The notes under the pieces were generated by a model. It did no database searches. It was not told the DNA's origin and saw only the letters and a list, made by a program, of their open reading frames with translations. A program made the position numbers and the translations under genes. Of a stretch of 64,000 nt of DNA, positions 1,413 to 62,557 are shown one piece after another; position 1 is the stretch's first letter; each line of letters starts with the position of its first letter. Source of the stretch: the human T2T-CHM13v2.0 reference genome, Homo sapiens; NCBI RefSeq assembly GCF_009914755.1, contig NC_060946.1; one strand, written 5' to 3'.

Positions 1413-4359
1413 CTGAGAGAGTGAACAGAGAGAAGCCGGAAGAGGCAGAAGAGAAAAGCATGAGAGGACAGGGTGGTGAAGGAGAGACATGGTACCGGAC
1501 ATGGGAGGGGGAAGTGGAGAAAGAAAGCAATGAGAACGAGCCCAGAAGTGAGGAGAAAAAAACAACAAAAGCATGGTCAGTGACCATCCAAACAACTGCA
1601 GTCCCAGCAGCTGTGACCAGCGCAGCACCCTCCTCGGCAGCCAGGCCAGAGCTGTGACAGCACTCTCCTCAGCCTTGGAGGCTGGGGGCGGATAGACCCT
1701 CCAGGTCACCTGGGTGGCCTCTCAATGTCGCTGGGGCCTAAAGGCCTCTCCAGCTCATTGGAAGGGCCCAACTCACTGCCCTTCCAGATGGGACCCGCTC
1801 TCCCCAGTGACTCTGAGGCCACACCGTGTGTGCCATGTGCACACCACAGCCCTTCAAGTACCCAGGGCCTTCTCTCTGGGACATGCTGTCAGCCACCAAG
1901 GCCTCAAGATCCTGAGGCCCAGAAAATAAACTGGCAAAGCATGTTCTAGGAGGAGGACTCTGCCTAGAGAAGACACATATGTAATTGACTGGATTTCCCT
2001 GGGTTGTTTTGAGAAATTTATCAAATTTGTATATGACATGATCAATTCCTATGTCTAAAACCCAATCAATGTCCCCTCCATGAGTGGATCTCTCTGAGAG
2101 CTGAGGATGAGGACAGGTCCCCAAGGGTAGCACAGGCTCAGGCCCCCAGGCCCTGCCCTCCGCACTCCCCCAGCCTGGAGGTCAGCCGAGGTGGTGTGTG
2201 CATCAGCTCTGACTCCAGGAGGCAACCTCTCCTACCGCATCAGGAACTCCCACCCTCCAGATATGGAGGGCTCCCAAGGGCAGGAGCCCCCGAGGACCTG
2301 GCCACAGCCACACACACCCAGAGGCAACAGGAAACTGAGGCTAAGCTGGCCCCCAGCCAGGACCCTCCAATCTACCACCCTGCAGCGCTGCAGCCTCCGA
2401 AGCACCCCTTCGGCCCAGCATAGCCAGAGCTGGCCTGGTGCATATCCTGCCCCGTGAGCGCCATGCCTCCTGCCCAAGTAGCACGACCACTGGGCTCCAC
2501 ACAGGAGACATCAGAACACACCTGCTAGATGTCACAACACGCAGAGCAGGGCGGGAAGGAGCAGGGCAGAGAGATGTTGCCCTTCACAGCCTTCCTCTGT
2601 GCCAGACCTAGGGCTCAGGCAGGAAACAGACACACAGTTCTCCAGTGCGTCTCTGCCCTTGCCTAAGGAACACGGTGGCTTGTGGGGCCATTGGCCATCT
2701 TTATGGCCCACGGGGCCACCAGGGAGCAAGCATGCACCTCGGATTCAACCAGGGTGTGGAGGGCAACCCTGGGAGCCTCACTTCCTGCATCTGAAAATAA
2801 GAGCTAGCAGAGACAGGCAGGGATTTCTGTATGGCAGGAGCAGCATAGGCCTGGGCAAGCGGCAAAGGGCCAGGGGCCTTGGGGGCCCCGACCTCCACAG
2901 CTGCCTTTCTCTGACCCCCACCCACCCAGTTTTCTCACGTTTTGTTTTTTGCCTCAACTGGAAGAGGCAAAAAGTGGAGCATCTCTGGGCACTTCGTCCC
3001 ACCACTGCAAGTCATTCTGAGCAGGACTCACGCAACCCAAGGTCTGGCCAAGAGGAAGCGAACATTGAGAAGAGGGGAAAGGCACCTCCTGCCCTCTGCA
3101 GGGACGACGCCTTGCCAGTTCCCCTGACCCATGAGGACACAGAATCCTCACAGGTGACAGCCCAGAAGAGCCTTTCTGGCTTGCCCTTGAAAGTAGGTGT
3201 GTTTCCACTCACTCAGTAGGCAGAACCAGCAGATAGGAAGGTGACACAGTGCAGCGGCCCCTGCCCCTGCCAGGTCAAGCCACATGCAAGAGCGCTGAGC
3301 AAGTGTTCTAGGGCGCCAGGGAGAAGCGGGGCCCTAGGAACCAACCAGCCCCCCAGGCACCAGCCAGGCATATGCAGTAAGTCTGCTCTGGAAGCGGGAA
3401 GGGCACTGCAGGCTCTTTGTGACTCAGGAGGCCCAAGATGGGGTCCCCAACTTTTCCTTGTGCTCCTTCCAGGTGATGCTGAGGGTGAGGATTTGGGGGA
3501 ACCTATGCTCTGAGAGAGCCTTCACATGGCAAAGCATGGGGCCACAGAACTGGCTGCAGAGGCTGTGGCAGAAACAGACCCACAGCTCTTCTCCAGAACC
3601 GGAGGAAAAGTGACAGGAGGCTCTTCTGAAGTTTAACTCCATCACCCACAGATCCTTCATTCTGGATGAAGCCTTCTGGAACTTTGTCAGCAATAAAGGC
3701 AAAGTCTCCCATGCATAGACGCCACGGGCACCGGACTACAGGATGTGTGCCCAGGGCATGCTGCCTAGAGAGAGAGTGGGGAGAGGCGAGGCGGAGGGGG
3801 AGGAAGCAGGCCAGGCTGCTTGTAGGAGGGCGCCAGGCCCCACACACCATGAGTATGGCGGCTTGCTCATGCTCTGGAGGAGGTGGGGGAGTGGGGGGCA
3901 GACAAAGGAGGCTAACTATGGTGCCACTATGGTGGGCATGGGTCTGCCCTGGGCCATCACTTCATGGGAAAGCACAAAGGCACTGCTGATGGTGGAGGAG
4001 ACAGACGAGAACGCGGCTCCCAGAGGCATTGCAGCTCCCCCACCCCCACAGCAAAAGTGCCACAACCTCATCTGTTCCTGTTGCCAGGGAGGGGGCTCCG
4101 GAAGCTGCACAGGAAAGGCCCTGGAGAGGCCAGACCTCCAGGCCTCAGTGTCCACATATCAGGGTGCAATGCCACCTGCTCCTCATCGGGAACTAGAGAA
4201 CTATGCCCACTTCTTATTCAGCTTCTGAATGAAGGGTGGGTGGTGGATTTCTGCTTCCCACCATCCGGTCTGTGAAAACTCACTCAAATGCAGGATAAGA
4301 AGCAGCAGGCTGAGCATGGTCAGAAGCAGGAGGTGGGAAGAAAAACTATGGAAACCTAC

Positions 4360-46029: not shown

Positions 46030-47275
<1,246 letters not shown>

Positions 47276-47451
47276 CCTTAGTACTGTTCCCCTTGTAAAG
47301 ATGGATAAATGGAGGCACCATGCATACTGTACGGAACCCGCCCAGGCAATGCAACCTGGGATAGCATGCCCAACGTGCCCCCGTGGAGAGCAGTGCAGAC
47401 CCAGATACCACACCTACCCTGCTTCCTTTTCTACCACTCTGGCCATACTCC

Positions 47452-48111
47452 CACTGTGGGCTGCCCTCCTACCGCTCTCCCCGCTGCAGTCTCCATGGCC
47501 ACCACCAACCTCAGCTAAGCGAAACACGTTGCCACACGCTCAAGCCTACCGCATCCAGCAGGCGTCTTACCCTTCTCCTTCTCTAAGCTGGGCACCGAAC
47601 ATCAGGGTATGCAGACACAGGAGAGCCCGGTAATGGCCTGATTCCTTGCCCCCTCAGCCGGCTTTATATAGGGAGGTTTTGCAACTGAGTGCCTGGACTA
47701 CATATTCTGATTGGATGAGAGAAAACGTCTAGGCCTACTCTGATTGGACTTTATTGTCATGTTCTGATTGGTTGCCTTAAGAATTGCTCTCATCCAATCA
47801 GAACATGATAATAAAGTCCAATCAGAGTAGGCCTAGAGGTTTTTCTCCCATCCAATCAGAACATGTAGTTCAGGACCCAGTGGTGTAACTTCCCTATATA
47901 AAGTATGCTGAGGGGACGTCAGGCCATTGCAGATTCTTTACTGTTTGCCTCCTCAGCGGCTCTTGCCCGGCTTAGAGGAGGAAGAGGCGAAAGGAAAGAC
48001 ACCTCCCTCACTCTGGCCTAAGGCACCACGGCTCACCTCACTGCTGTGGTTGGTGGTTGCTGCCACGGAGACTGAAGAGCCACCGGAGTAGTAGGAGGGT
48101 GGCCCACAGTG
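47452..48111. promoter_or_regulatory. Inverted repeat with bidirectional TATA/CCAAT promoter architecture and two head-to-head first-exon-like arms
   Basis: Left arm 47452-47771, 22-bp spacer, right arm 47794-48111. ATTGG at 47710, 47743, 47767; CCAAT at 47794, 47818, 47852, all in a CCAATCAGA context. TATATAAAG at 47670-47662 (minus) and 47895-47903 (plus). TCAGGCCATT downstream of each TATA. The palindrome is directly visible; promoter function is inferred. Confidence 0.75.
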
Positions 48112-48249
48112 CAGGAGCTGCTCAGTGCCCGGCTTAAAGGAGGAAGAGAAGGGGAAGACCCCTGTCCCAAGCTGGAGGCTGGAGCTCTTGGCACCTCGGC
48201 TGGCCTCTCTGCGATTGGTGGCTGTAATGAAGACTGCAGCCCCGCCTGA

Positions 48250-49646
48250 GCATTAAGAAGGAGAAAATAGTTTTTGGGTAAATGGAGGGAGAAAAGAGAG
48301 TGGCAGGTGGAAGGAGTACAGAGAGAGTAGTAAAGGGGGGAAAACACGGGGGCGAGCAAGAGGGAGAGGAAGTTTTGCGAAAAGAGAGTGGGGAGAAAAG
48401 TTTTTGGGTAGATAGAAGGGGAAAAGAGGGTGGCAAGCAGGAGCCATAAAAGATGGTGGGGAAAAGAGTGGGGGAAAAGTTTTTGGGTAGATGGAGGGGG
48501 AAAAGAGGGTGACAAGCAGGAGGGGGGAAGGAGGGTTGGGAAAACGACGACGGAAAAATAGTTTTGGGGGGCAGATGGAGGGTGAAAAGAGGGTGGCGTG
48601 TGGGAGAGGGGCGGGAGTGGGGAAAAGAGGTTGTTGAGCAGGAGCAGGGAGAAGGCTTTGTGAAAAGATGGTGAGGGGGGAAAGACAAGAAAAAGGTTTT
48701 TGGGTAGATGGAGGGGGAAAAGAGGGTGGTGAGTAGGAGGGGGCAAGAGTGGTGAGCGAGGGAGACAAGGTTTTCCAAAAAGACCATGGAGGAAAATGTT
48801 TTTGGGTAGATGGAGGGGGAAAAGAGGGTGACAAGCGGGAGAAGGAAAAGGGGTGGTGAGCGGGAGGGAGAGAAGGTTCTGCGAAAAGAAGGAAGACAGA
48901 AAAGAAAGATGGTGCAGAAACAAAAAACGTGGGTAAAAAGCTTTTGGGCAGATGGAGGGGAAAAAGTGGCAAGTGGGAGGAGAAGAGAGGGTGGCGAGAG
49001 GGAGGTAGGGAAGAGGATTGGGAAAAAGATGATGGGGAAAATAGTTTTGGGGTAGATGGAGGGCAAAAAGAGGGTGGCAAGCAGGCTAGGGGAAAGAAGA
49101 GGGCGAGCGGGAAGGAGGAAGGGCTTTGTGAAAAGACGGTGGGGAAAAATTTGGGGGGTAGATGGAGGGGGGAAGAGGGTGGCGAGCCGAAGTGGGGAGA
49201 AGGCTTTATGAAAAGACAGTGGGGAAACGTTTTTGGATAGATGGAAAAGAGCGTAGCAAGGAGGGGAAAAAAGACGATGGGGAAACAGTTTTTGGGTAGA
49301 TGGAGGGGGCAAAGAGGGTGGTGAGTAGCAGGAGTAGGAAAAAGGCTTTGGGAAAAGATGGAGGGAAATGTTTTTGGGATGATGGAGGAGCAAAAGGCTA
49401 ATGAGAGCGGAAGGGGGAAAAAGAGGGTGGGTAAAAACTGTGGGGAAGTTTTTGGGTAGATGGGGAAAAGAGTGGTGAGTGGGAGAGTAGAGAAGGTGTT
49501 GTGAAAAGACGGTGGGGAAAAAATGATGGGGAAGAAGTTTTGGGGTAGATGGAGGAAGAAAAAGGATGGCGAGAGGGAGGGGTCCGAAGGCGGTCAGGAA
49601 AAGAAGGCAGGGAAATAATGATGGGGGAGAAAGCTTTTGGGTAGAT
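48250..49646 (+). repeat. Degenerate purine-rich tandem array, ~15 copies of a TTTT(T)GGGTAGATGGAGGGGGAAAAGAGGGTGG-like motif
   Basis: Motif copies near 48271, 48401, 48480, 48562, 48697, 48799, 48942, 49045, 49150, 49230, 49289, 49371, 49449, 49538, 49635; spacing ~60-145 bp; plus strand strongly depleted of C. Confidence 0.9.
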
Positions 49647-52631
49647 CTTTTTCTGATTTTTAAATCAGATTATTTGCATTTTTGTTTTTGAGTAGTTCTT
49701 GTCTTCTTTATATATTTTGTGTATTAACCCCTCGCCTGATGCATAGTTTGCAAATACTTCCATTCTCTGGATTATTTCTTCATTCTATGGATTGCATCCT
49801 CTGCTTTGCAGAAGTTTTGAAGTTTAATGTAATTCCATTTGTCTATTTTTGCTTTTTCTGCTTGTGCTTTTGATGTCTATTTGAAAATTCCTTGTCCTAA
49901 CCAATTTCCTAAAGTATTTTTCCTATGTTTTTTTCTCTAGTAGTTTCATAGTTTCAGATCCTATATTTAAATCTTTATTTTGAGTTGATTTTCTTACATG
50001 GTAAGATAACAGTCTAGATTTATTCTTCTACCTGTGGGTGTTGGGTTTTCCTAGCACAGTTTATTGAAGAGATTGTCCTTCCTGAATGTGTGTTCTTGGT
50101 GCCTTTGTTAAAATTGAGTTGACTGTAAATGTGTGAATTTATTTCTCAGTTCTCTATTCTGTTTCATTTGTCTATGTGTGTCTGTCTGTCATTTGTCTAT
50201 GTCTGTCTCTCTGTCTCTCCCCGCCCCCCCCCTTTTCTTGCCAGTACCATGCTGTTTTGGTTACTATAGATTTGTAGTATATTTTGAAATCAGTGTGATG
50301 CCTCCAGCTTTTTTCTTTTTATTCAACATTCTTTTGTTTATCTGAAGATATTTTGCATTTCCATGTGAATTTTAGGCTGGTTTTTTTTGTATTTCTATGA
50401 AGAACATCTTTTGTAATTTAACATGGATTGCACTGACTCTGTAAGTCATATATTGGGTGACACAGATATTTTAACAATATTCTTTCTAGTGCATGGACAT
50501 AGGATAGCTTTCTATTTACTTGCATTTGCTTTAATATCTTTCATCAATGTGTTTTATAGTTTTCATTGTGGGATCTTTTGCCTTTTTGGTTAAGTTTATC
50601 CCTAGGTATCTTTTTTTGGTGAGTACTGTTAATGAAATAGCTTTCCTGATTTTTCTTAGGTGTTTCACTATTGGCTCATTGGTGTGCTACTCATTTTTGT
50701 ATATTGATATTGTGTCTTGCAATTATACTAAATTTATTATTTCTAGTAAGATTTTTAGTGGAATCTTTAGGGTTCTCTATTATATGATCATGTTACCTGA
50801 AGACAGAGAAAATTTGACTCCTTTTTTTCCAGTTTGGATGCCTTTTATTCATTTGTCTAATTGCATTCTCTTGCCTAATTGCTGTAGTGAGGACTTCCAG
50901 TACTATAATGAACAAAAGTGGTAAAAGTAGCCACGTTTGTTCCAGATTTTAGAGGAAGAGCTTTTAAATTTTCCCCATTGATTATGATGTTAGCAGTGGG
51001 TTTGTCATATATGGCCTTTATTGTGCTAAGTAATGTTTCTTTTGTATTCATTTTGTTGAGTTTTTATCATGAAAGAATGTTGAATTTTATTTTTTTCAGC
51101 ATCTACTGAAACGATTACATGGTTTTTGTTGTTGATTTGCTGAATATGATGTATCACATTTATTTGTTTATTGAATCATCCTCATTTTCCTCAGATGAAT
51201 CTTGCTTGATCATGGCAGATTATCTTTTTATTGTATTGTCAAATGCAATTTTCAAGTATTTTGTTGAGGATTTTTTTGCATCTGTGTTCATCAGGGATAT
51301 TTGTCTGTGGTTTTCTTTTTGTGTTGTGTCCTGGTCTAGTTTTTGTACCAGGGTAATGCTCGCCTTATAGAACAAGTTTGAAAGTATTCCTCTTCATATT
51401 TTGGGGAATATTTTGAGTAAAATCGGTATTCGTTGTTTTAAAAATGTTTGGCAGAATTCAGCAGTAAAACCATGATTCGTGTGTTTTTCTTCAATTGACA
51501 GGAGACTTTTTATTACTGCTTTAATTGCATTACTCATTATTCGTCTCTTCAGGTTTTTTATTTCTTTATCATTCTATCTTGGGAATTTGTTATATGTCCA
51601 GAAATTTATTCATTTCTCCTACATTTTTCAATTTGTATATAAGTGTTTTTAGTAATCTCTTAGAATACTTTGTATTTCTGTGTGATCAACTGTAATGTCT
51701 CCTTTTTCGTCTATCATTTTCAGTTTTTCTTAGTCTAGTTAAAGCTTGTCAATTTTGACTTTTTTCCAAAAACAAAAAAACCCCAGCTTTTGGTTCCGTT
51801 TGACTTTTTGTATTTTTTTTAGTTTCAATTTTTAATTTTTTTCTAATCTTTATTATTTTATTTCTACTAATTTGATTTTTCTTGTTTTTCTCATTACTTG
51901 GTGTATTGTCAGGTTGGGTATTTGAGATCTTTCTACTTTTATACTGCTGTGTTGACTTCTTTACCCTTATATAATTATCTTTCTAGTTTTTCTTTTTTTG
52001 ACTTAAAGTCTATTTTATCAGATATAAGTGTAGCTACTCCTGCTTTTTTGTTTCCATTTGTATGGGATATCTTTTATCATCCTTTCATTTTCAGTCTATG
52101 TATGTCTTTATAGGTGAAGTGAGTGTCTTAGTCAGTATATAGTTGGGTCTTGTCTTTTAATCCACTCAGCCACTTTGTCTTAATTGGAGAATTTAATTCA
52201 TTTATATTCAAGATTATTACTAACAGGTAAAAACATACTGTTGCCATTTTTTACTTGTTTTCTAGTTGTTTTGCTACTCTCTTTTTTTGTTCTTTCTCCT
52301 TTCCTTTCTCTTCTCTCCTCTCTCTCTCCTTTCTTCCTTTCTTTTCCTTCCTCTTTCCCTTCCTTCCTGTCTTTATTTGTAGTGAGGTCATTTTCTCTGG
52401 TAGTGTGTTTTAATTTCTTGCTTTTTTATTTTTAGGGTGTCTATTACTGATTTTTGTTTTCTGGTCAGCATGAGGCTAAACAACATAATTATAACGAGTT
52501 ATTTTAAACTGAAGAAAACTTAACCTTGATTGCAAAGAACAAAAAAGAGAGAAACAAAAAAAACTAAAAACATTTACCCTGTAACTCTATCCCCCGCAAC
52601 ACACACACATTTTGTATTTAGATGTCTTTCA

Positions 52632-57640: not shown

Positions 57641-58532
57641 AAAAATTTTATATTTGGTTAATTAAAATTTAAGTTGATTTTGGGGTATCAACGCTTCTCT
57701 TATATGAAAATAAGAGCATGAATCAAGAAATAATGGGTTCCCAAATACTGCAGTGGAAACACATTTTTTTGGGGGGGTACAAAACAAGTATCCATGTACA
57801 TATAGTCCTTGGTTCCCCAAGTCATTGAGTCAACTTAGTCAAAATAAGTAGCCTCTCATTTCTTATCTCATGAGGGTGGTCTTGCCTTGCTTGGAGACAT
57901 TATAATGAATTCACTTGATGTAGTTACTTTTAAGCATACCAGTTTACTTCATATCCCATTTTCAACCAGTTATCGTACCCGGAATAATTGCTAGAATCAA
58001 ATTCCATCATGCACAGGTAAATAAGTAAATTCTGTCATTTACTATCTAAATTAGATATATAATTATTTATAGATACGTACATATATTTTACTTGTAATTC
58101 AGTGAACATAAGGCTTTGTATGCTCTGTCTAAAATATGCTGTCTATATTAATTCTCATGATAGTAAAGAATAGAGTGATGGAGTCTATATTTTACATATA
58201 TCTTCCATTTAGTAGCAGAAATAAAATCCTTGTACTTGATTTGGTAAATTCCTCCATTTAAATTAAGATGTTACTTCCCGGAAACAAAATTTTTTTTTCT
58301 TTTTTTTTTTTAAATTTTAAATCTTTAATTTCTGTTTTCACATATTTTCTTTTTGCTTCCAAAAGGAAAGGAGTGCGTAGCTCTGTTGACTGTGTACATC
58401 GTCCACAGCCCCTGGGTCGGGGCAGGGTCCCCTAGGCCGCCCGGGGGTCCACATGCAGCCCCTGGGGGGCCGGCGCGGGGTGAGGTCCGGGGGCCGCCTT
58501 ATTGCTGAGGTCCGGCCGGTTGGGGCCCGCCG

Positions 58533-58935
58533 CTAGGCGCGCTGGCTGGGCAGCTCCTGGGAGATGAAGCGACGCAGGCGCTCCAGGTACTGGCTGTAGA
58601 GCTCGATGTCGTTGTGCCCGGCGCCCTCCACCCACAGCGGCTCCACCGCCTTGGGGCAGCGCTCGTAGAGCGCCAGCCCGTGTGAGAAGTCGATCACCTC
58701 GTCCTCCATGCCGTGGATGATGAGCACGGGCGACGTGATCTTGGACACCTTCTCGATGTTAGGGAAGGCGTCGAAGCAGTAGGTCTTGGTGTCGGGGAAG
58801 GCGACGCGCATGCCCGAGGTGAGCGGCGAGTGCAGCACCACCGCGGCACACTCGTAGCGCGAGGCCAGGTCCACGGTGGGCACCGTGCCGATGCTCTGCC
58901 CGTACAGGATGATGCTGTCCGGGCTGATGCCGTAC
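58533..58935 (-). CDS. ABHD17AP4: ABHD17A-like ORF, second coding block ([16 protein letters not shown]...HGMEDEVI...AGHNDIE...ELPSQRA*), open
   Basis: 403 nt in phase with block 1; spliced total 927 nt = 308 aa + stop. Translation in vivo unknown. Confidence 0.55.
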
Positions 58936-61175
58936 CTGGCGGCGCCGGAGCAGGGTCAGCCGCGGCCTCCGACGCGGGCGCACCCTTCCCACCAGCGGGC
59001 GTCCCCGGGCCCAGCTCCGGATGCGACCCTCCAGTCTCCCCACTCAGCTAAGTCAGTGGGTCAGACCCAGGCTCCACACCAGTCCCGAGGGCCACCCCCA
59101 GCCCCCAACACCGCGGCGGTGGGCGAAGCCAGCGGCCCCGCCCTATTCCCTGGCGCTGCCGTTCACTGGCGTTTCCTAGCAAGGATCTGCAGGGATCCCG
59201 CCTACAGAGTGCCCCTGGGGCAGGGGTAGGGGAGGCCCTGGCACCTCTCCTCCTCCTGGTCACCCCTAGGTGCACACTGGGAACTGTGTGCCCCCTACAT
59301 TCTGAATGCTTCACGCCTCCCTGCCCGGGTTAGAAAGCCGTTCCTGGTGCACTGGCCAGGACAGCAGACACTCTTCCTCCCTGCAGCCTTTGCCCACCCC
59401 CTTGGCCATGAGGAATTCAGGCAGCTGTGTCCCCAAATGTCTCCACCCGATTTTGGAGTCTCGGAGTCCCCACGCCCAATGAGATGCCAGTGCAACCCAG
59501 GTCAGCATCGAGGGTGGTGGCTGCGGAGGTGGCACCCCCTCCCACCAGCACCTTCCCTTGGGAGTGGACAAGTCCTCGGCCACCTCAGCACCACCAGCTC
59601 CCACCCAGGGGCACCCCCACCCCCAGGTCACTGGTGTGCGGCCCCTGACCCAGCTGATCCAGCAACAGTTACAAGGCCTCCTCGTGCCCAATCCCAACCA
59701 CGCGGGACCCACCTGCCACCCTGCCCATGCCGGGACCCCACAACTCTCCTCCCACACGCTCCAGGCTCTGATCCCAGGCAGACGCCCTCTTGCAAGGCAG
59801 GAGCATGGGCAGGTGTGCATCCCCTCTGCCTGGCATTCGGACTCCACCAGCGGGCTGTCCCCGTCCCTGGCCTGGAATCCCAGCCTCCTGGCAGCACTCC
59901 ACGGCTCGCCACTCACCCATGCCCCAAAGGATGCTGCCTGGCTGGTGCCTGTGGCCCCAGCTCTGCCTCGGCCTCCCCGGCCTGCTCCCTGGCAGCCATG
60001 GTCAGTAGTGTGCTGAGCCAGCCCAGCCCTACCACCTGCTACAGGCAGGAGCCCCCAGCTGCCACCTGGATGTCACCACTCAAAGGAACGGGACACATCC
60101 CCAGTGGAGGCCCTGGGCACGCTCTGGCCTCCCCCTCACAGCTCTGGGCCTAGGTTCCTGCAGGACAAAGTGGCAGCAGGACAGATGGCCGAGCAGACAG
60201 AGCTCAGAGCTGGCCATGGCGGGTGTGACTCTGCCAGTGGCCCAGGCAGTAGAGACAGGAGGGGCCGAGGAAGTCGCATGAAGTGGTGATTGGTGTCAGC
60301 GCCCCACACTGCTGGGAGGCCCCCGGAGCCAGGGTGGTGCCAGGGGACCAGCTCCCAGGCCCACAGCAGGGACCGCCTGCAATATCACCAAGGCAACGAG
60401 GACCCCACCTCCCCAGGGCCTCTGACTTCTCAGAGTTGTGCCTGGTCCCCTGCGGGAGCAGGTCAGACCAGTGGGCTGGGCAGGGCCAGGACGAGACAGC
60501 CCCAGTGGATGGCGAGCAGGAAAGGCCACCAGAGGCCCACCCGGGTCTCCTCGTCCAAAGCAGCACTGGCCCGGGCGGTGCTCAAACACCGGTGAAGGGC
60601 CCAGGCAAGCGCAGGGCTGGGGACCTGGATGACTAGGAGGGCTGGATCTGGAATCGAGGCTGGCCCAGACCTCGGGTGTGTGCTGGGGGTCTGCACCTTA
60701 CCCTGCAGGCCCTGCCCCAGGATGGCCAAGCTCCGCAGCCACAGGGCCTCATGGGCCAGGCCTCGGGACCTGGATGCAGCAGCCTCGCCTCACTTGGCCC
60801 CAAGTGCTGCCTCCGCAGATGGGCTCCCAGCCACACGTGCACAGACCCCCAGACCACCACCCACTCCCGACTGCCGGGTGGCATCCACGCCCCTGTGATA
60901 AGCTCAGCCCCTTCCCGTCCTCAGGCCAGGGGTTCCCAGGGAGCCTGGCTCCACAGGCCAGGGTGTGGGAGGACCGCCTGGCCACACCTCAGCCATGTGG
61001 AGGCGGCACCTGCACACCCAAGCTCGCCTGTCCGGCTCTCTGGCCCTGTGCATCCACTGTGGCTCCCCTCCTGCAGGGCCGCCCAACTTCCTCCCAGGGA
61101 AGCCCGCCCCCCGGCCCCCGGCTTGGTCCCCTCTTGGGTGTGCCCAGGCTGAGCTGCCCCCAGGGTCGCCCTCAC
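58936..61175 (-). other. Retained 2240-bp intron inside the ABHD17A retrocopy
   Basis: GTGAGG donor, CTGAC branch-like motif and ...CCGCCAG acceptor interrupt the codon in LRTR|YGISPD; the coding sequence on either side is uninterrupted. Confidence 0.9.
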
Positions 61176-62050
61176 CTGGTGCGCAGCGCCTGCCAGGCGG
61201 CGTCGATGTCGGCATAGAGGTTCCACTCGGAAGGCCTGCCCGCGCTGGCACCGTAGCCGGAGTAGTCGTAGATGATGTTGCAGTGGAGGCGGGAGTTCAG
61301 CCCAGTGTAGAAGCTGCTCATCTGGCCCAGGTCCACCGCGTTGCCGTGCGAGAAGAAGACCGTGTACCTGGCACCAGGCACGCAGCGAACATACATGCAG
61401 GAGACGCGGTTGCCGTGGGCGCTCTTAGTGGGGAAGACCTCGATGGTGTCCAGCTCGCGCTGGCTGTACTGGAAGTCGGCGAGCTCCGTCAGGTGCAGCT
61501 TCCAGCGCCCGAGGAGGCCCGCAGGGTCCCCAAGGGGGCGGCCCCGGCCCCACCAGGCCCCGGCCCCACCAGGCCCGGGCTCAGGCACCAGGGAGTAGGT
61601 GGCCTCCGGCGGCAGGAAGGCGAGCTTGGCAGCGATGCGGCCGGGGCAGGGCGGGTAGCAGAAAAGGCAGCAGAGCTCACTCAGCGACAGCCCGTTCATG
61701 GCAGGCGCCTCCCGGGCCGGGCCTCCACCGGGGCCCCCGCCAACAACGCCGCCCGGCCTGGCCGGGCAGGGGAGGGGTGGGGGTGCTCCGAGTCGCGGGC
61801 AGGGGTGAGAGCCCCAGACGGCAGCCCCATTAGGAGGCCAGGGCCCAGCCCCATCGCGGTCCAAGCCGCCCCAGGGAGCCTCGCAACCACAGGTCTCCAT
61901 GTCGTGCCGTGGGAAGGCCACCCCGGCCCGCGCCCCCGGGCCCCAGGGCCGCGCTCCATGGCTCCCGACCGCCCGCCCGTGCATCTGTCGGTCCCTCCGC
62001 GCCCCGGCCCGGCCTCCTGCACCGCCACCGCCGCAGCTCCCCCACGAACG
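61170..62050. promoter_or_regulatory. CpG-island-like sequence imported with the ABHD17A retrocopy 5' end
   Basis: Very high GC and abundant CpG against AT-rich flanks; a second CpG-rich block lies at ~58420-59170. Confidence 0.6.
61176..61699 (-). CDS. ABHD17AP4: ABHD17A-like ORF, first coding block ([20 protein letters not shown]...AWQALRT), open
   Basis: 524 nt from the ATG at 61699 to AG|GTGAGG; no stop (ORF 61172..61984). Translation in vivo unknown. Confidence 0.55.
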
Positions 62051-62557
62051 GAAGCAAAATTTTTCTTAACGGGATGATAATTCACTAGTTTACCTCTAAT
62101 GAGTCTCAGTATTTAATCTATCATGAAATTACGCGGCACCAAAATAAAATATAATTAGTTAAAACACAAAAATTATTTTATTGATTAATTTAGACATCAG
62201 ATGTTTACATTATGAAATCAAGGTATTTTTTGGTTTTTGTTTTGTTTTTAGAATATTAGCAAATATTACCAAACATGAACCATAGTAAAAGTTCTTCAGT
62301 AACACTTTACCATTCCGTTTTCAAATAACCTGAATTTATGTGCCAGATTGAAAAGCTTTTAGATGAGTGACCTATATTTCTGTATGTATCCAAATATTTG
62401 TATATCATGTAGACAAGCCAAGAAAATACGCAGATATGTAAGCCATTGCATAGAATGGTAAAGAATACATTCTTAATAAGATGCATTCGCTTAATGCTCC
62501 AAACAGGTCTCTAGTATCTCAAATGCAGCATTCACCCACTATTTCCAAACATATCAG

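What the first reader, a model, noticed from the sequence alone, without database searches (positions are those of the whole stretch)
47571..48250. Arms resemble BAGE-family first exons: a portable cancer-testis-type promoter module
Seen: both arms share GCCC(A/G)GCTTAGAG..GAGAAGG..AAGAC..GGTTGGTGGT..GGAGACTG..GTAGGAGGG..GCCCACAGTG. The right arm repeats this unit at a 162-bp period (47964 and 48126). From memory, the first exon of BAGE mRNAs has very similar blocks (CCCGGCTTAGAGGA..GAGAAGGGG..GCTGGAGGCTGGAGC..TAGGAGGG). BAGE genes arose when such a 5' module was joined to duplicated KMT2C/MLL3 fragments. Inference: this is a member of a dispersed promoter/first-exon duplicon that lends transcription to whichever gene fragments lie next to it.
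Basis: partly seen in the sequence, partly recalled or inferred. Interest (0 to 1): 0.7.

Follow-up and report, generated by a model that had tools for sequence, protein, structure and literature searches.

The report
Palindromic BAGE-type promoter repeat (REP522)
This is one of more than 50 human copies of an old mirror-image DNA repeat, most likely the known repeat REP522, that also forms the start of the BAGE tumour-antigen genes and likely works as a two-way promoter, though activity of this particular copy is untested.

Summary
Window 47448-48117 is a degenerate palindrome with six CCAAT boxes between two outward-facing TATATAAAG boxes, flanked by ~160-bp GC-rich units. At least 50 other copies exist (85-92% identical in the core of the 40 full ones), many near centromeres. 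At loci matching Pfam BAGE the same core lies directly before the exon-1 region (75% to the window's left unit), and the BAGE coding exon is another copy of the unit (76%). Two published anchors (BAGE locus, miR-5701) and the published description point to REP522, already reported as enriched at cancer-activated promoters; I could not compare with its consensus. The module is not self-mobile: copies share both flanks at the same divergence as the core, so it spread in old segmental duplications. This copy lost 3-4 kb of its left arm, including the BAGE coding-exon homologue, so it is no BAGE gene. It keeps all six CCAAT and both TATA boxes (7 of 41 copies do), but RefSeq lists no transcript here. 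Verdict: a known repeat; the promoter anatomy and repeat origin of the BAGE reading frame were not found in my literature searches.

The parts
47448..48117 (.). Degenerate palindrome centred near 47782
   Evidence: I1-I4, I18; score 184, shuffles max 33
47692..47874 (.). Inner core: near-perfect inverted repeat (53-bp inner arms 94% complementary, 16-nt spacer) with ATTGG at 47710, 47743, 47767 and CCAAT at 47794, 47818, 47852
   Evidence: (fold z -21)
47662..47670 (-). Left TATA box (TATATAAAG), facing left
47895..47903 (+). Right TATA box (TATATAAAG), facing right; start site predicted about 30 bp on, near 47926 (inferred)
47751..47769 (+). 18 of 19 match to mature miR-5701, in the central hairpin
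47448..47635 (-). Left GC-rich unit, homologous to the exon-1 region of a BAGE-type locus (114 of 152 aligned bases); donor-like sites at 47570 and 47417
47950..48111 (+). Right unit 1
48112..48260 (+). Right unit 2 (162-bp offset); 99 of 130 aligned bases match the BAGE coding exon and its 3' flank
47324..47447 (-). Remnant of the left arm, ending at a deletion junction near 47324 that removed about 3-4 kb
46511..47324 (.). Left flank: multicopy repeat (537 candidates for 46975-47324; ERV-like by recall only) interrupted by a masked repeat at 46644-46971; lies 3-5 kb from the core in other copies
48250..49650 (+). Degenerate G/A-rich array that follows the right arm in most copies examined
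49650..52400 (.). Right flank, T-rich, L1-like by recall; its junction with the array is shared by 22 of 32 copies tested

Best explanation
The feature is a truncated copy of a palindromic repeat with more than 50 human copies, most likely REP522, whose six CCAAT boxes between two outward-facing TATA boxes likely form a two-way RNA polymerase II promoter. Shown: the anatomy, the copies, the homology to the 5' region and coding exon of BAGE-type loci, the shared flanks and the deletion in this copy. Inferred: an ancestral palindrome of up to about 6 kb (long arms survive at two chr22q12 loci) was spread in segmental duplications roughly 30-45 million years ago (10-14% divergence, recalled primate rates). 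NF-Y likely binds the CCAAT boxes in either direction, TBP likely sets a start about 30 bp past each TATA, and the units then serve as first exons that can splice into whatever gene fragment lies downstream, as at BAGE. The family is likely kept off in soma by H3K9me3 and DNA methylation and released in germ cells, 8-cell embryos and tumours (published for BAGE and REP522, not for this copy). I put the REP522 identity at about 0.9 and activity of this copy in some tissue at about 0.3.
For: Six CCAAT boxes and two TATA boxes in mirror order. 40 full and 10 partial copies among 52 loci tested. Core directly upstream of an ATG, splice donor and Pfam-BAGE exon in L034. BAGE locus said to contain a large REP522 region and H3K9me3 in liver (PMC3560060, passages). 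miR-5701 said to overlap Rep522 (10.1101/2021.12.09.471935, passage); its mature sequence is exact only at two chr15 copies of this palindrome. REP522 described as ~1.8 kb, largely palindromic, enriched at cancer-activated promoters (PMC4896275, meeting abstract) and up at the 8-cell stage (PMC6545021, passages). Flanks as similar as the core, 86-93%. CpG counts 3-9 per 250 bp over 47250-49750 against 0-1 in the non-Alu flanks shown. CCAAT columns change less than other core columns (0.63 vs 1.13 per column, p=0.008).
Against: No REP522 consensus or RepeatMasker track was available, so identity rests on two anchors and a description. RefSeq lists no transcript here; one of seven listed enhancers has no coordinates in the table. 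The CCAAT conservation is not significant once CpG columns are removed (p=0.12) and the core is hardly more conserved than the flanks. The six BAGE-type copies aligned (L055-L060) have lost the TATA on both arms by my pattern, so a TATA is not needed for the known activity. CpG observed/expected over the palindrome is only 0.37, not a CpG island. NF-Y and TBP binding were not tested.
Confidence: 0.72

Rival explanations
1. Same family, but this copy is a silent relic; its motifs survive because it has drifted little (short branch) and not through use.
For: No RefSeq transcript; 3-4 kb of the left arm lost; core barely more conserved than flanks; non-CpG test of CCAAT columns not significant; right arm leads into a G/A array and an L1-like stretch with no donor or polyA signal found by my pattern in 47920-51500.
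Against: All six CCAAT and both TATA boxes intact, true of only 7 of 41 copies; CpG retained relative to flanks; donor-like sites on the left arm.
Confidence: 0.5
2. The point of the palindrome is a hairpin RNA: a miR-5701 paralogue or other small-RNA precursor.
For: 187-nt hairpin at -132 kcal/mol, z -21; 18 of 19 match to miR-5701.
Against: No arm-to-arm homogenisation across 18 non-redundant copies (own arms 0.162 vs other copies' arms 0.159, p=0.70); both TATA boxes point away from the hairpin; 10 of 50 copies have lost part of one inner arm; no Rfam family reaches its cut-off; miR-5701 is listed among putative miRNAs overlapping repeats. The window's own arms are the most symmetric of the 18 (0.072), which this reading would welcome.
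Confidence: 0.07
3. A self-mobile element (transposon or LTR-like) that inserts its promoter beside new genes.
For: More than 50 copies on at least 13 chromosomes; CCAAT/TATA content typical of LTRs (own knowledge).
Against: Copies share flanks on both sides: 24 of the best 28 non-self matches to the left flank lie 3-5 kb from a known copy, and 22 of 32 share the right junction. Independent insertions would have unrelated flanks.
Confidence: 0.04
4. A BAGE gene or pseudogene.
For: Left unit 75% identical to the BAGE-type exon-1 region, with an ATG in the matching position.
Against: No Pfam BAGE match in the window; the coding-exon homologue of the left arm is deleted; no KMT2C-like PHD exon nearby; the window copy falls outside the clade holding the BAGE-type and 5q35 copies (support 0.98).
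Confidence: 0.03

Closest known systems
REP522 (Repbase/RepeatMasker repeat)
   Same: Largely palindromic, interspersed, present at BAGE and at miR-5701.
   Different: This copy has a truncated left arm; homologous arms reach about 6 kb at one chr22q12 locus, beyond the ~1.8 kb described; 'mostly telomeric' (PMC6545021) does not fit the mainly pericentromeric copies found here.
BAGE (B melanoma antigen) 5' region, Pfam PF08180
   Same: Same core, unit order and orientation; 78% identity over 419-444 aligned bases for either arm.
   Different: BAGE-type copies lack the TATA boxes and have an expanded ATG/donor repeat, an intron, a coding exon and a downstream KMT2C-like fragment; the window copy has both TATA boxes and none of the downstream parts.
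hsa-miR-5701 (15q11.2)
   Same: Central hairpin, 18 of 19 bases of the mature sequence.
   Different: One mismatch; not annotated as a miRNA here; exact sequence only on chr15.
NF-Y multi-CCAAT promoters such as LTR12 and G2/M gene promoters (recalled, no call)
   Same: Tandem CCAAT boxes, outer pairs 33-34 bp apart, ahead of a TATA box.
   Different: Here duplicated head-to-head as a palindrome and spread by segmental duplication; no sequence comparison with LTR12 was possible.

Membership tests
REP522 | Sequence match to the REP522 consensus or model | not testable with these tools
REP522 | Largely palindromic | tested here: met
REP522 | Interspersed, low-copy | tested here: met
   73 candidates; 50 of 52 loci tested carry the core
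REP522 | Homologous to loci published as REP522 (BAGE on chr21; miR-5701) | tested here: met
   the papers give no coordinates in the passages read
REP522 | About 1.8 kb long | tested here: inconclusive
   Palindrome 0.67 kb here, 2.3 kb with arm remnant and G/A array, up to about 6 kb at L048; limits of the consensus unknown
REP522 | Promoter activity in cancer cells | not testable with these tools
   Published for the family; no data for this copy
BAGE genes | 5' promoter/exon-1 region homologous to BAGE | tested here: met
   exon 1 is placed from the ATG, donor and Pfam exon in genomic DNA, no mRNA was available
BAGE genes | Coding exon matching PF08180 | tested here: not met
   None of 21 matches lies in the window
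BAGE genes | Downstream KMT2C/MLL3 fragment | tested here: not met
   PF13771 exon 40-57 kb downstream of 7 of 11 strong BAGE-type loci, none near the window
BAGE genes | Cancer/testis expression | not testable with these tools
   No expression data
miR-5701 / microRNA gene | Hairpin carrying the mature sequence | tested here: inconclusive
   Hairpin present, 18 of 19 match; no Rfam family over cut-off
Autonomous or non-autonomous transposon | Independent insertions with unrelated flanks | tested here: not met

The most novel reading that the evidence does not exclude
REP522 is the remnant of an old ~6-kb palindromic, two-way NF-Y/TATA promoter cassette that has acted as a gene nursery: its ~160-bp unit supplied both the first exon and the antigen-coding exon of BAGE de novo, copies sit 3 and 12 kb upstream of two RFPL-type genes, and the window copy, among the few with every promoter box intact, is an unannotated germline/tumour promoter in 22q11.2 that splices leftward into the same-strand SGSM1 pseudogene 6 kb away.
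Probability: 0.2. Interest if true: 0.55.

Novelty: already known. Interest (0 to 1): 0.3.

Why it matters
REP522 was called little known, and its cancer activation is reported without a mechanism in the passages I could read. The anatomy here gives a testable one: a palindromic six-CCAAT, two-TATA promoter that explains two-way starts and predicts which copies can fire. It also suggests that a human tumour antigen's reading frame arose from a repeat unit, and that miR-5701 is the centre of a promoter palindrome. For this locus alone the value is low unless transcription is shown.

Tried and rejected
Rfam scan of 47000-50000: 7 matches, all generic hairpins below cut-off. ORF list: nothing BAGE-like; the long minus-strand frames are low-complexity readings of the G/A array. 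Arm-to-arm gene conversion: not detected. A DUX4-type motif (recalled pattern) was found in 0 of 41 cores. A copy upstream of the third chr22 RFPL-type gene: none in the 5.6 kb examined (L054). FAM153 exons lie about 57 and 63 kb from two chr5 copies, too far to interpret. The one-mismatch 16-mer scan is a poor census (306 hits vs 162 for the reversed control); L072, picked from it, was a chance hit. Papers not held: Kaczkowski 2016 and Ruault 2003; their text and supplements may already list this copy or describe the repeat origin of BAGE exons. PMC8524813 gave no REP522 passage. A search for neighbouring pseudogene names gave 16 papers, none on this element by listing; one was opened and concerns ABHD17AP4. 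Long flanks were seen for only 8 copies; most others were seen as 1-3.5 kb stretches.

Full report
Observation. The sequence 47448-48117 is a degenerate palindrome centred near 47782. The inner arms (47722-47774, 47791-47843) are 94% complementary; the whole arm alignment scores 184 against at most 33 in 300 shuffles. Each arm, read outward, has three CCAAT boxes, a TATATAAAG and a GC-rich unit of about 160 bp; the right arm has a second unit 162 bp on. A G/A-rich degenerate array follows at 48250-49650.

Copies. A search of the own genome with 47440-48260 gave 73 candidates, of which 40 were scored, with 116 matches, nearly all on both strands at each place. I held DNA for 52 other loci: 40 carry the full core (85-92% identical to the window), 10 a partial core, 2 none. 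These are lower bounds; several places seen were not fetched. In six of the partial copies the sequence runs from the first right-hand CCAAT box straight into the part after the third, which fits deletion between the direct repeats (D17). So most copies are palindromic and a minority are collapsed.

BAGE link. Pfam PF08180 gave 11 strong and 10 weak matches, none in the window. In L034 the core is followed by a unit, an ATG with a GT donor, about 1.1 kb of intervening sequence and the AG-flanked Pfam exon. I had no mRNA, so 'exon 1' is inferred from that layout. The window's left unit matches this region at 114 of 152 aligned bases (score 104, shuffles max 46), and the second right unit matches the BAGE coding exon and its 3' flank at 99 of 130 (score 71, shuffles max 36): the coding exon is itself a copy of the unit. 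A PHD-type exon like one at chr7:153.4 Mb (KMT2C by recall of position) lies 40-57 kb downstream, same strand, of 7 of the 11 strong loci and nowhere near the window. [quoted passage not shown]

Identity. I recalled REP522 as a candidate and tested it through papers. A search for the name gave 14 papers. A meeting abstract describes it as ~1.8 kb, largely palindromic, and strongly enriched at cancer-activated CAGE promoters (PMC4896275). PMC3560060 (passages) places a large REP522 region at BAGE, under H3K9me3 in human liver and active in Tc1 mouse liver. A preprint (passage) says miR-5701 overlaps Rep522; the mature sequence, taken from an inhibitor listed in the supplement of PMC9365560 (two rows seen), is exact at only two places, both chr15 copies of this palindrome, and the window has 18 of 19 (7 matches within one mismatch, reversed control 2). 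Passages also report REP522 up at the 8-cell stage without demethylation (PMC6545021) and expressed in lung cancer cells (PMC6925957; PMC11353194).

How it spread. The left flank 46975-47324 is a multicopy repeat (537 candidates), but 24 of its best 28 non-self matches (24 of 39 listed) lie 3-5 kb from a palindrome copy known (my count). The junction from the G/A array into the right flank is shared by 22 of 32 loci tested (some misses may reflect short loci). Flanks and core are about equally similar, 86-93%. This is segmental duplication of a block, not insertion of a free module. In the window the left flank lies only 0.46 kb from the centre, so 3-4 kb of left arm was deleted at about 47324; all 8 long loci still hold the block before the BAGE coding exon. 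Two chr22q12 loci keep long arms on both sides (2.2 kb at 75%, 1.1 kb at 73%), likely nearer the ancestral form. Pfam RDM matches lie 3.1 kb and 12 kb from two of the chr22q12 copies (RFPL3 and RFPL2 by recall); no copy was found in 5.6 kb upstream of the third.

Mechanism. Mirror-image CCAAT triplets before outward TATA boxes are the layout of a two-way NF-Y/TBP promoter (own knowledge; binding not tested). CCAAT columns change less than other core columns (p=0.008), but not significantly without CpG columns (p=0.12) (18 non-redundant copies). Against a strict need for TATA, the BAGE-type copies lack it. The window is one of 7 of 41 copies with all six boxes and both TATAs. Its left arm has donor-like sites at 47570 and 47417 and points toward the same-strand LOC100421121 pseudogene 6 kb away; its right arm points into the G/A array and an L1-like stretch. 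RefSeq lists no transcript, and I had no expression, methylation or binding data. No arm homogenisation was seen, which weakens a hairpin-RNA function.

Novelty. The family and its cancer-activated promoters are in print, so this is a rediscovery of a known repeat. I did not find the six-CCAAT/two-TATA anatomy or the unit origin of the BAGE coding exon in print, but that rests on eight searches of an open-access library (one search returned 0) and the key papers were not held. PMC12767296 (passages) does not mention REP522. Interest 0.3.

Noticed in passing
L031-L041, position 1501 onward: The BAGE coding exon is a diverged copy of the same ~160-bp unit that forms the exon-1 region; T2T-CHM13 holds 11 strong BAGE-type loci, including chr15, chr22 and chr5:181.8 Mb.
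   Followed up: partly
L048 1917-8305; L053 2550-7304; L022: Long-armed versions of the palindrome at chr22:32.59 and 32.67 Mb; copies at 32.67 and 32.82 Mb lie 12 kb and 3.1 kb upstream of RFPL-type RDM exons, on arms that have lost the TATA box.
   Followed up: partly
L012, L061, L055 (tree): BAGE-type cores group with copies at chr5:176-179 Mb (support 0.98), suggesting a 5q35 origin of the BAGE branch; 183 columns only.
   Followed up: no
L052, L065 (chr15:19.73 and 18.86 Mb): The annotated miR-5701 sequence is the centre of this promoter-like palindrome, which casts doubt on it as a true microRNA.
   Followed up: partly
L021 1145-1493 vs 2789-3125: In the chr22:25.14 Mb copy the left arm is replaced by an inverted piece of the right-flank L1-like sequence.
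   Followed up: no
window 48250-49650: G/A-rich degenerate array with GC skew up to 0.84 and retained CpGs; possible G-quadruplex or R-loop former; origin unexplained.
   Followed up: partly
window 58312-62054: A candidate imprint control region (ICR_1358) is reported to overlap ABHD17AP4, about 10 kb from the element (PMC9665137, passage).
   Followed up: no
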